A stretch of DNA of 23,754 nucleotides, from the NCBI GenBank assembly GCA_038248345.1, contig JBBRXO010000035.1:1-23754 (forward strand), in the 5' to 3' direction. The position numbers are program-made. The stretch is from Armatimonadota bacterium (GTDB taxonomy: Bacteria > Armatimonadota > Hebobacteria > CAIYQO01). The first letter of the stretch is position 1, and every line of letters starts with the position of its first letter. This document shows, one piece after another, positions 18,001 to 21,000 of the stretch.

Positions 18001-21000
18001 CCCCGCTGAATAAGGTCTTCTTCTGCAACAGTGGCGCGGAGGCGGTGGAGGCAGCGCTGAAGCTGGCGCGCAAGCACGGCCAGCGCGACTCGGCGGAGCG
18101 GGTGGAGATCATCAGCACGCTGAAATCCTTCCATGGCCGCACCATGGGGGCGATAACCGCCACCGGGCAGCCGAAATATCAGCAGGGGTTCGCTCCGCTG
18201 GTGCCGGGCTTCAAATACGTGGATTTCAACGACCTGGCGGCGATGGACGCGGCCATTAACAATAAAACCTGCGCGGTGATCCTGGAGCCGGTGCAGGGCG
18301 AGAGCGGCGTCTACCCCGCCACGCAGGAGTATATGGCGGGCGTGTGCCGGCTGTGCGACGAGCGCGGCGCAGCGCTGATCCTCGACGAAGTGCAGACGGG
18401 CGTGGGCCGCACCGGCAAGTTCTTCGCCTTCGAGCATTACGGCATCGTGCCGGATATCGTCACGCTGTCCAAAGCGATCGGCGGCGGCATGCCCTTTGGC
18501 GCCATGCTGGCAAAGGAGCCGGTGGCCTCGGCCTTCCAGCCGGGCGATCATGCCACTACCTTCGGCGGCACGCCCATCGCGGCAGCGGCGGCGCTGGCGG
18601 CGGTGACGGCCGTCATCGAAGAGAAGATGCCGGAGAACGCGGCCAAAATCGGCGTGTTGCTGGCCAAACGTGCGGCGGAGCTGCAGGCGCGCAACCCGCT
18701 GGTGGCGGATTTCCGCGTGTGCGGCTGCATGATGGCCATCGACCTGGCAATGCCCATCGCCGCGGCGGTGAAGGACAACGCGCAAGCCAATGGCCTGCTC
18801 ATCCTCACCGTAGGCGCCACCATGCTACGCCTCCTCCCCGCGCTAATCTGCACCCCCGAGCAAGTAGAGGAAGCGTTCGCGATCATCGAAAAGGCGCTGG
18901 AGGCGTGCGGATAGGATTAATAGACGGCATTTGTTGATCGTAGTGTGGGCACCGATGCCTATACTACGATCAACTTATGCGTGAGTGAAGTCAAAGCCAG
19001 AACCTAACGTGGGTTCCACCCACAACCCAATATCTTATCTGTCCTGCAAGCAATTGTGGCATGGGCGGGACGCCCATGCCACGATCAACCCACAACGTGC
19101 AGCTTTTCAATGCAAGTTGTTTAGAATATTACCATGAAGGGGCTACAGACCTACAGACCTACAGACCTAAAATTTGACACTCATCCCCGCCCAACCCTAT
19201 AATTATCACCATATGTCGATACTGACAAAAACAACTGAAAACATTGACGGTAAACCTGGCGGCGGTTAGTCGCGTGGAACGTCGTTCGCGCGTCTTGCCG
19301 CAGGGGTTAATAACCTGCGGTATTTTTTTTAGCTGGCGCGCAGGAGAGGGGTAAATATTATGTTGCTGGGAACACAGAGGATTAATGAAGCTGGGCATCT
19401 GGAGATCGGCGGCTGCGATACGCTGGAGCTGGCGGCGGCGTTCGGCACGCCGCTCTATGTGATGGACGAGGCGGATATCCGCGCCCGGTGTCGCTCACTG
19501 CGTGCCGCCTATGAGGCCCGCTACCCGCAGACGCTGATGTTATACGCAGCCAAGGCGTTCATTAACAAAGCCATTTGCCGTATCATGGATGAGGAGGGCA
19601 TGGGGCTGGACCTCTCCAGCGGGGGCGAGGTCTACACCGCGCTAAAGGCCGATTTCCCTATGGAGCGCGTCTACCTGCACGGCAATAACAAGTCGCTGTG
19701 GGAGCTGGAGCTGGCCATCTCCTCGAGGGTGGGCCGCATTGTGCTGGATAACGAGCGTGAGATGGACATGGTGCAGGAGGTGGCCGCCAGCCACGGCGTG
19801 GTGCAGGATGTGCTGCTGCGCGTGACGCCGGGCATCAAGCCGGAGACGCACAGCTATATACAGACCGGGCAGATAGACACCAAGTTCGGCCTGGGGATGA
19901 GTACCGGCTGCGCCAAGCGCGGGCTGGCGAAGGCGCAACAGCTGCCCAACCTGAACATCGTGGGCTTGCATTGCCACATCGGCTCTAACATAATGGGGCT
20001 GGACAGCTTCGAGATGGCCGCGCGCATGATGATCCGCTTCGCCGCACAACTGCGCGACGAGCTGGGGCTGACTATCGCCGAGCTAGACCTCGGTGGTGGC
20101 GTCGGCGTGCGTTATCGCAGCGACGACCAGCCGCCCACCCCGGAAGAGTACGCCGATGCAGTGATCACCGGCCTGCATGATGAGCTGGCCAAGTATAGCC
20201 TGCCCTACCCGCTGCTGCTGCAGGAGCCGGGCCGCTCAATCGTGGGCGAGGCGGGTACCACGCTCTACACCATCGGCACTATCAAAGATGTACCTAACAT
20301 TCGCAAATACGTCAGCGTCGACGGCGGCCTCAGCGATAACCCGCGTCCGGCGCTCTACGAGGCGGTCTATGAGGCAGTGGTAGCCAATAAGCCGAACGCC
20401 CCGGTGACCCAGAAGGTGCGCCTGGCGGGCAAGCATTGCGAGTGCGACAACCTCATCTTCGACCTGCCGCTGCCCGATGTGGAACCCGGCGACATCCTCG
20501 CCGTGCAGACCACTGGCGCCTACAACTACAGCATGGCCAGCAACTACAACCGCTTCACCCGCCCCGCCGTGGTGCTGGTAAACGAGGGCAAAGCCGAGTT
20601 GATCGCCAACCGTGAGACGTTGGATGACCTGCTGAGCCATGACGTGGTGCCGAAACGGCTTAAAAAATAGCGCATAACATCGGTATTTCATCTAGTTTAA
20701 TTCACAGGATACAAGGATACCAGGGATATTAATGTTATTATGTATCTCATCCTTGATATCTTCTCTTTCCTTCTATCCTGTGAATTAGACTCTCAATGTG
20801 ACGATCGCTGGAGGATATTTTATGCCTGAATACCTGAACGCAAAACTTGAACAGTACCTTGACCAGCTGGCCTCTGGCGAGCCTATCCCCGGCGGGGGGA
20901 GCGCGGCGGCGCTGGCGGGGGCGATGGGGGCGGCGCTGCTGGCGATGGCCGCACGCTTCACCATGGGACGCCCCAAGTATGCCGACTACGAGGCAGTGGC

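What a model noticed while it worked through the whole genome (the two positions that open the first line are those of the whole stretch)
19213..19330. Ribosome-dependent lysine attenuator upstream of lysA
lysA is preceded by an 18-codon leader peptide ending K-P-G-G-G-stop, an antiterminator and an intrinsic terminator. It likely works as a classical attenuator that senses lysyl-tRNA through a single, position-fixed Lys codon. Classical attenuation has not been described for lysine.
Evidence so far: 7 of 12 family genomes have a 17-18 aa peptide of otherwise free sequence with Lys exactly five codons before the stop (K-P/T-x-G-G); 2 more have short Lys-rich peptides (3 Lys), 1 keeps the terminator with a 2-Lys peptide, 2 lack the leader. 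The G-G-stop region pairs with the terminator 5' arm at -24 to -35 kcal/mol in the 5 folded. No lysine riboswitch in rna.tsv or call 61. Paper searches 67, 167 found none.
(Added by a program. Inside this text positions count along the whole contig: contig position 1 is position 1 of the stretch shown here. "Call 12" and the like, gene names such as g00115 and contig names such as C1 are that model's own, and its searches are not shown. The text may have been shortened before it was handed on; [...] marks where a part breaks off. The agent that wrote the report below was given it as the finding of a first reader that could run no searches.)

Follow-up and report, generated by a model that had tools for sequence, protein, structure and literature searches.

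The report
Lysine leader-peptide attenuator before lysA
A tiny upstream gene with a lysine codon at a fixed spot and three competing RNA hairpins sit in front of the last lysine-synthesis gene in this class of uncultured Armatimonadota, and they likely let a stalling ribosome switch the gene on when lysine runs short, a textbook type of control in an uncatalogued form.

Summary
Real and conserved. This layout is in 14 family leaders. 14 of 14 checkable genomes of two sister families carry a different sequence with the same logic. Ribosome-walk folding puts Lys at the last codon that still allows read-through. thrS in the same class has a Thr-codon counterpart. Best reading: classical Lys-tRNA-sensing transcription attenuator (0.85), untested experimentally. 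Corrections: this genome's peptide has two Lys codons. The 'free' part is enriched in Thr and Met codons, so it may read the whole aspartate family. 'Not described for lysine' is probably wrong: I recall a proven lysine leader-peptide attenuator in Thermus thermophilus (Tsubouchi 2005), which the library does not hold. Weak points: no covariation beyond shuffles for antiterminator or protector, and the geometry fails if the ribosome covers 14 nt. The scan found this system before on other DNA of the same class (e1-9893579), and lysine attenuators in several other lineages. New variant of a known kind.

The parts
19174..19203 (+). sigma70-type promoter, TTGACA-18-TATAAT; predicted transcription start about 19210
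   Evidence: 12 of 12 consensus matches; an equivalent promoter precedes lysA in 12 of 12 family genomes; start site inferred, not measured
19213..19269 (+). Leader ORF, 18 codons, near-leaderless (ATG 9 nt after the -10 box, no Shine-Dalgarno)
   Evidence: 15-20 codons in 14 relatives with TAG/TAA/TGA stops; translation inferred
19228..19230 (+). Second Lys codon (codon 6), not position-conserved; Thr codons at 5, 7 and 8 around it
19252..19254 (+). Position-fixed Lys codon (codon 14), the proposed sensor
   Evidence: alignment A1; ribosome-walk edge
19255..19277 (+). Protector (1:2-type) hairpin, starts at the first base after the Lys codon
   Evidence: -10.6 kcal/mol, 9 of 200 shuffles as good; -10.6 to -18.7 in 12 of 13 type-I leaders; 84.8% of cells paired, no covariation above shuffle
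19259..19301 (+). Antiterminator: Gly-Gly codons pair with the terminator 5' arm around an inner hairpin
   Evidence: -23.9 kcal/mol, 0 of 200 shuffles; 88.7% of cells paired, covariation not above shuffle
19296..19330 (+). Intrinsic terminator: 9-bp stem, 9-nt loop, T8 tract
   Evidence: 96% of cells paired, covariation score reached by 4 of 500 shuffles
19343..19351 (+). Shine-Dalgarno-like sequence of lysA, outside all three hairpins
   Evidence: sequence
19360..20670 (+). lysA, diaminopimelate decarboxylase, 436 aa
   Evidence: TIGR01048 above cut-off

Best explanation
The leader of lysA holds a short ORF and three mutually exclusive RNA hairpins and is likely a classical transcription attenuator in which a ribosome that would stall at the fixed Lys codon when charged tRNA-Lys is scarce is predicted to let the antiterminator form and lysA be transcribed. 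Shown: promoter consensus, ORF, hairpin-forming sequences, their conservation, and the identity of lysA. Inferred steps: (1) transcription starts near 19210 and the ORF is translated from an almost leaderless start; (2) with enough Lys-tRNA the ribosome runs over the Gly-Gly codons to the stop, the antiterminator cannot form, and the terminator ends the transcript at about 19330; (3) with Lys in an empty A site the ribosome covers about 10-12 nt from the P site, melts the protector that starts right after the Lys codon, and leaves the Gly-Gly codons free to pair with the terminator 5' arm. Lys is fixed in place because it sits at the downstream edge of the permissive window. The Pro-x-Gly-Gly residues are a by-product of RNA pairing. 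Thr/Met codons further upstream may modulate the switch; the sign is unresolved.
For: Layout in 7 of 12 family genomes and in 7 of 7 further metagenome family loci with enough upstream DNA (L031 duplicates L005, L027 has only 46 nt upstream). Lys is in RNA register in 13 of 14. In L023 a stop moved up to two codons after Lys and Lys stayed in register. In L024 Lys moved three codons up and the protector extends to it. 12 of 12 checkable f4 and 2 of 2 f3 genomes have a different leader (not matched by model R1) with Lys-Arg just before their own antiterminator arm. The Lys codon is AAA in 14 and AAG in 16 of 30 leaders. Lys is codon 13-15 in 26 of 26 type-I and f4 leaders, while the -10-to-ATG distance varies from 7 to 34 nt and the 11 codons before Lys share only 33% nucleotide identity among 12 type-I leaders. 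Ribosome walk, footprint +12, mean gain for read-through over a ribosome at the stop: type I -9.9 (K-1), -7.7 (K), -2.5 (K+1), -0.2 (K+2), no ribosome -5.4; f4 -11.0, -11.0, -9.2, -2.9, no ribosome -3.3 kcal/mol. In-frame Thr/Met enrichment absent off-frame points to selection on the reading frame. Internal control: 27 of 30 thrS loci of the class have a Thr-run leader ORF before a terminator arm; Lys is 1.8% there against 9.4% in lysA leaders. No lysine riboswitch. A single slow codon at a key position de-attenuates the Salmonella his leader in vivo (PMC4046918, passages). A leaderless trpL is translated in S. meliloti (PMC10117765, passages).
Against: No expression, start-site or translation data. 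Antiterminator and protector pairs are mostly invariant or G-U, with covariation at shuffle level. With a +14 footprint the type-I Lys falls outside the permissive window (-2.8). In this genome's own leader the equilibrium model makes no ribosome or an upstream stall (ddG +2) at least as permissive as the Lys14 stall (+5 to +6), so the protector does not give specificity here. f3/f4 hairpins lack a good U tract. In genus g7 the stop sits where Lys is elsewhere, and L006 shows almost no switch in the model. 3 of 12 family genomes have lost the peptide. The related sequences are not independent, and the thrS ORFs were picked by Thr count.
Confidence: 0.85

Rival explanations
1. Multivalent aspartate-family attenuator: stalls at the Thr and Met codons upstream of Lys also set the outcome, either adding read-through or vetoing it by leaving the protector intact. 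This is a refinement of the best reading, not exclusive of it.
For: Upstream of the last Lys: type I (13 leaders) Thr 32 against 11.5 in shuffles and Met 10 against 2.6; f4 (12 leaders) Thr 28 against 12.6 and Met 24 against 2.2; off-frame Thr 4.6-6.2%. 0 of 20000 draws of 13 G000 gene starts reach the Thr rate, 0.6% the Met rate. All four Thr codons are used. A Thr+Lys-rich candidate leader before an aspartate dehydrogenase gene is proposed in S. meliloti (PMC10117765, passage).
Against: 4 of 13 type-I peptides have no Thr. Thr/Met codons are not placed preferentially at permissive positions (permutation P 0.05-0.73 over six tests). Met runs could be spare start codons. No Thr/Met synthesis gene was recognised behind lysA in 18 f1 and 12 f3/f4 loci read by eye (no family scan run).
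Confidence: 0.3
2. RNA-only switch (unknown ligand or protein); the ORF and the Lys codon are by-products of nucleotide conservation.
For: Pro-x-Gly-Gly and the f4 Arg/Gly-Val-Arg-Val residues are explained by base pairing. In f4 part of the AAG codon lies in a hairpin.
Against: The type-I Lys codon is unpaired or only partly paired in most folds, switches AAA/AAG between lineages, and keeps frame with the first ATG across variable spacing. The 5' half has no conserved sequence or fold for an aptamer. No Rfam match.
Confidence: 0.07
3. General translation-speed or coupling sensor (any stall, antibiotics, or a nascent-peptide arrest), not specific for lysine.
For: The permissive window spans about five codons (K-4 to K), and in this genome all upstream codons are permissive in the model.
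Against: Lys is the only residue in the window shared by all 30 leaders. It is the product of the downstream enzyme. The sister thrS leaders carry Thr instead. The peptide sequence is not conserved, as an arrest peptide would be.
Confidence: 0.08

Closest known systems
Leader-peptide attenuator of the Thermus thermophilus lysine (alpha-aminoadipate) gene cluster (Tsubouchi et al. 2005, J Biol Chem; recalled, not retrieved: not held, searches did not list it; named by other scan agents)
   Same: Lys codons in a leader ORF control transcription read-through into lysine-synthesis genes (recalled).
   Different: Here the target is lysA of the diaminopimelate route (dapA and dapF are present), in another phylum, with one fixed Lys codon rather than tandem ones (tandem is recalled) and a near-leaderless start. 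Sequence homology could not be tested.
E. coli/Salmonella trpL, hisL, thrL, pheM classical attenuators (own knowledge; his passages from PMC4046918)
   Same: Short ORF, cognate codon a few codons before the stop, protector/antiterminator/terminator hairpins, U tract.
   Different: Only one fixed cognate codon. The antiterminator 5' arm lies inside the last codons of the ORF. No sequence match to any Rfam leader family.
Lysine riboswitch (Rfam RF00168)
   Same: Controls lysine-synthesis genes through terminator/antiterminator choice.
   Different: Senses free lysine with an aptamer of about 180 nt. Not found in 0 of 31 class genomes. This leader is about 120 nt with a variable 5' half.
Leaderless trpL of Sinorhizobium meliloti (PMC10117765, passages)
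   Same: Attenuator ORF starting at or next to the first transcribed base.
   Different: Trp codons and trpE(G); translation shown there, only inferred here.

Membership tests
Classical ribosome-dependent transcription attenuator | Short ORF in the leader of an amino-acid synthesis gene | tested here: met
Classical ribosome-dependent transcription attenuator | Codons for the pathway's product at the control position | tested here: met
   Lys in 30 of 30 leaders, in RNA register in 13 of 14 type I and 12 of 12 f4; usually one fixed codon, not a run
Classical ribosome-dependent transcription attenuator | Intrinsic terminator before the gene | tested here: met
   for type I; f3/f4 hairpins lack a clear U tract
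Classical ribosome-dependent transcription attenuator | Mutually exclusive antiterminator and protector helices | tested here: inconclusive
   predicted and 85-89% paired across 14 sequences, but covariation at shuffle level
Classical ribosome-dependent transcription attenuator | Stall at the cognate codon favours the antiterminator, ribosome at the stop favours the terminator | tested here: inconclusive
   met in the equilibrium model for footprints +10 and +12, not for +14 in type I
Classical ribosome-dependent transcription attenuator | Translation-dependent, amino-acid-specific read-through in vivo | not testable with these tools
   needs reporter or in vitro work; no RNA run was listed
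Lysine riboswitch RF00168 | Match to the aptamer model | tested here: not met
T-box riboswitch | Stem I with specifier loop and T-box antiterminator bulge | tested here: not met
   no Rfam match in the window; 5' half is variable and unstructured across relatives
Thermus lysine attenuator family | Sequence homology of the leader | not testable with these tools
   no Thermus locus could be fetched; the paper is not held

The most novel reading that the evidence does not exclude
A branch-point attenuator that reads three amino acids in one 18-codon frame: a single Lys codon at the edge of the ribosome footprint switches lysA on, while Thr and Met codons upstream tune or veto the switch, so the ribosome balances lysine synthesis against the competing threonine and methionine branches of the aspartate family.
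Probability: 0.25. Interest if true: 0.65.

Novelty: new variant of a known kind. Interest (0 to 1): 0.42.

Why it matters
It adds an uncatalogued lysine control element for the diaminopimelate route in a class that lacks the lysine riboswitch. It is a natural experiment on ribosome footprint geometry: three differently built leaders put Lys at the same edge. It suggests that one codon can be a sufficient sensor. If the Thr/Met enrichment is functional, it would be a compact multi-input gauge for a metabolic branch point. It does not open a new kind of regulation: the mechanism is textbook, a lysine example is probably already proven in Thermus (recalled), and this scan has reported the same class and several other lineages before.

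Tried and rejected
Literature: ten searches listed no paper on a lysA leader-peptide attenuator or on attenuation in Armatimonadota. They also failed to list the Thermus paper I recall, so the blank is weak. One search confirms only that a Fujiwara/Tsubouchi/Nishiyama 2006 paper on Thermus lysine regulation exists (reference list). PMC12612679 and PMC12360218 (passages) had nothing on it. No supplements were opened. No RNA holder listed; no evidence either way. The first walk metric was too noisy, and the mask let upstream RNA pair across the ribosome; both were replaced. One search used wrong columns and was redone. The 'antiterminator starts at +11 to +14' figure (22 of 24 rows visible, six rows cut) has +11 as a floor set by the mask, so I rely on the energy step instead. 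T-box reading of the GCGUGG motif rejected: it is explained by pairing in both protector and antiterminator. Homology of type-I leaders with f3/f4 or thrS leaders: model R1 found none at E up to 1. Other amino-acid genes of G000 (aspartokinase, dapA, lysS, dapF, a cimA/leuA-like gene, trpE, ilvB, hisG, argD): no cognate leader seen by eye. R1 finds one copy in G000. The loose genome-wide scan (110 rows, part cut) was mostly noise. Outside the class: no Lys leader seen in 40 lysA upstream regions from 32 families (four cuts were off-frame and most were read by eye over 200 nt; R1 negative). G021 (contig end) and G030 (masked bases) could not be checked. An operon explanation for the Thr/Met codons was not supported.

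Full report
Observation. The window holds, on the + strand, a 12 of 12 sigma70 consensus promoter at 19174-19203, an ATG at 19213 opening an 18-codon frame MSILTKTTENIDGKPGGG-stop, a 9-bp G+C stem at 19296-19322 with a T8 tail (-16.5 kcal/mol, 0 of 200 shuffles) and lysA at 19360-20670 (TIGR01048 above cut-off). The Gly-Gly codons can pair with the terminator 5' arm (19259-19301, -23.9 kcal/mol, 0 of 200 shuffles). A third hairpin, 19255-19277 (-10.6; 9 of 200 shuffles), starts right after the Lys14 codon and excludes the antiterminator. The ATG is 9 nt after the -10 box with no Shine-Dalgarno, so the ORF is nearly leaderless. In this genome 12 of 52 strong promoters followed by a long ORF have the ATG within 10 nt of the -10 box. 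Relatives are titled Armatimonadota.

Distribution. Of 12 family genomes, 7 have this 'type I' leader, 2 (genus g7) have shorter peptides with 2 and 3 Lys that stop before the antiterminator arm, 1 keeps the terminator without a usable ORF, and 2 lack it. Seven more type-I leaders came from metagenome contigs. Of the 14, 12 have Lys five codons before the stop. L023 has an early stop with Lys still in register with the RNA, and L024 has Gln at that place with Lys three codons earlier and a protector that reaches it. Lys is therefore tied to the RNA structure, not to the stop. In the rest of the class, 16 genomes had a lysA match; I fetched 15 and could read 14. All 14 (12 in f4, 2 in f3) have a different leader: a 21-26 codon ORF with Lys-Arg directly before an arm that pairs with a strong downstream hairpin. 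The type-I model R1 does not match them. No such leader was seen in 40 lysA upstream regions from 32 other families of the phylum (partly by eye). The lysine riboswitch is absent from 31 of 31 class genomes.

Is the ORF real? Stops vary (TAG 9, TAA 1, TGA 4 of 14). The 11 codons before Lys share 33% nucleotide identity among 12 type-I leaders, yet Lys is codon 13-15 in 26 of 26 type-I and f4 leaders while the promoter-to-ATG distance runs from 7 to 34 nt. The codon is AAA in 14 and AAG in 16 of 30 leaders. Thr and Met codons are enriched in frame and not off frame. These are signs of selection on the frame; translation itself is untested.

Mechanism. I masked all RNA up to 10, 12 or 14 nt from the P site for each ribosome position and compared the best antiterminator state with the best terminator state. 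With +12, the mean gain for read-through over a ribosome at the stop is -9.9, -7.7, -2.5 and -0.2 kcal/mol at K-1, K, K+1 and K+2 in 13 type-I leaders (L012 left out as a near-duplicate) and -11.0, -11.0, -9.2 and -2.9 in 12 f4 leaders. Without a ribosome it is -5.4 and -3.3. So Lys marks the downstream edge of a permissive window, and upstream positions are intermediate because the protector persists. Against this: at +14 the type-I Lys falls off the edge (-2.8), and in this genome's own leader the protector is weak, so no ribosome or a stall at Lys6 or at the Thr codons is at least as permissive as Lys14. The model is equilibrium folding and ignores kinetics. Covariation supports the terminator (96% paired, score reached by 4 of 500 shuffles) but not the antiterminator (88.7% paired, 224 of 500) or the protector (84.8%, 375 of 500). 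This fits strands that have two partners each, but it is not positive evidence.

Internal control. A promoter-anchored scan of the genome returned four candidates, of which two were convincing: this leader and a leaderless 21-codon ORF with Thr-Thr-Thr before a terminator and thrS. 27 of 30 thrS loci of the class have such a Thr-run ORF (ORFs were picked by Thr count). Lys makes up 1.8% of those peptides and 9.4% of the lysA peptides. The lineage thus uses leader peptides with cognate codons. That one codon can suffice is shown for the Salmonella his leader, where single slow codons at His5 de-attenuate (PMC4046918, passages).

Unexplained. Thr, Met and Lys share aspartate semialdehyde as precursor (established knowledge). 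No Thr/Met gene was recognised behind lysA, and the walk does not tell whether stalls there help or veto. This is the most novel open point.

Comparison. It works like trpL/hisL/thrL attenuators and meets the structural criteria I could test. It is not a lysine riboswitch or T-box. The claim that classical attenuation is undescribed for lysine should not stand: I recall Tsubouchi et al. 2005 on the Thermus thermophilus lysine cluster, and other scan agents name the same paper, but I saw nothing of it (ten searches). PMC10117765 (passage) proposes a Thr/Lys-rich leader before an aspartate dehydrogenase gene. My searches listed no paper on a lysA leader peptide or on Armatimonadota attenuators. 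The scan reported this same class-wide system from another genome (e1-9893579) and lysine attenuators in several other lineages; these are unchecked notes, and I reached my reading before opening them.

Verdict. Confirmed feature; probable Lys-tRNA-sensing classical attenuator (0.85); new variant of a known kind; interest 0.42.

Noticed in passing
G000:C56, about 2050-2215 (+); L118-L145: Leaderless Thr-run leader ORF with antiterminator and terminator before thrS, in 27 of 30 class loci; in f3/f4 it follows a tRNA-like gene directly. Already noted by the scan (e1-4916887).
   Followed up: partly
L079, L095, L098, L101, L102, L106, L109 and others; also L033-L035, L070, L071: In several other Armatimonadota families a terminator-like hairpin, mostly with a U tract, begins within a few bases of the predicted lysA transcription start, with no leader ORF. 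No Rfam match in the 7 tested. How it is regulated is unexplained.
   Followed up: partly
L039-L052 (family f4 lysA leaders): The start-codon region pairs at long range with the antiterminator arm in the untranslated fold, a second protector that would tie read-through to initiation; the downstream hairpin has no good U tract.
   Followed up: partly
L008, L011 (genus g6): Two genomes lost the peptide and terminator but keep the promoter and a G+C hairpin, while G008 of the same genus keeps the full attenuator.
   Followed up: no
window 19143-19169: 8-nt tandem repeat, 3.4 copies, just upstream of the promoter; similar short tandem arrays lie upstream of other genes of this genome.
   Followed up: no
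window 19058-19083: Short palindromic repeat between argD and the lysA promoter; a similar palindrome lies upstream of dapF on C41.
   Followed up: no
L014-L018: A second, distant lysA-like gene (about 30% identity) in 5 of 11 relatives; no type-I leader match.
   Followed up: no
window 17715-18914 and 20798-23563: argD-like transaminase upstream; fchA-like and folD-like genes downstream, both below their NCBIfam cut-offs. Not conserved next to lysA in relatives.
   Followed up: partly
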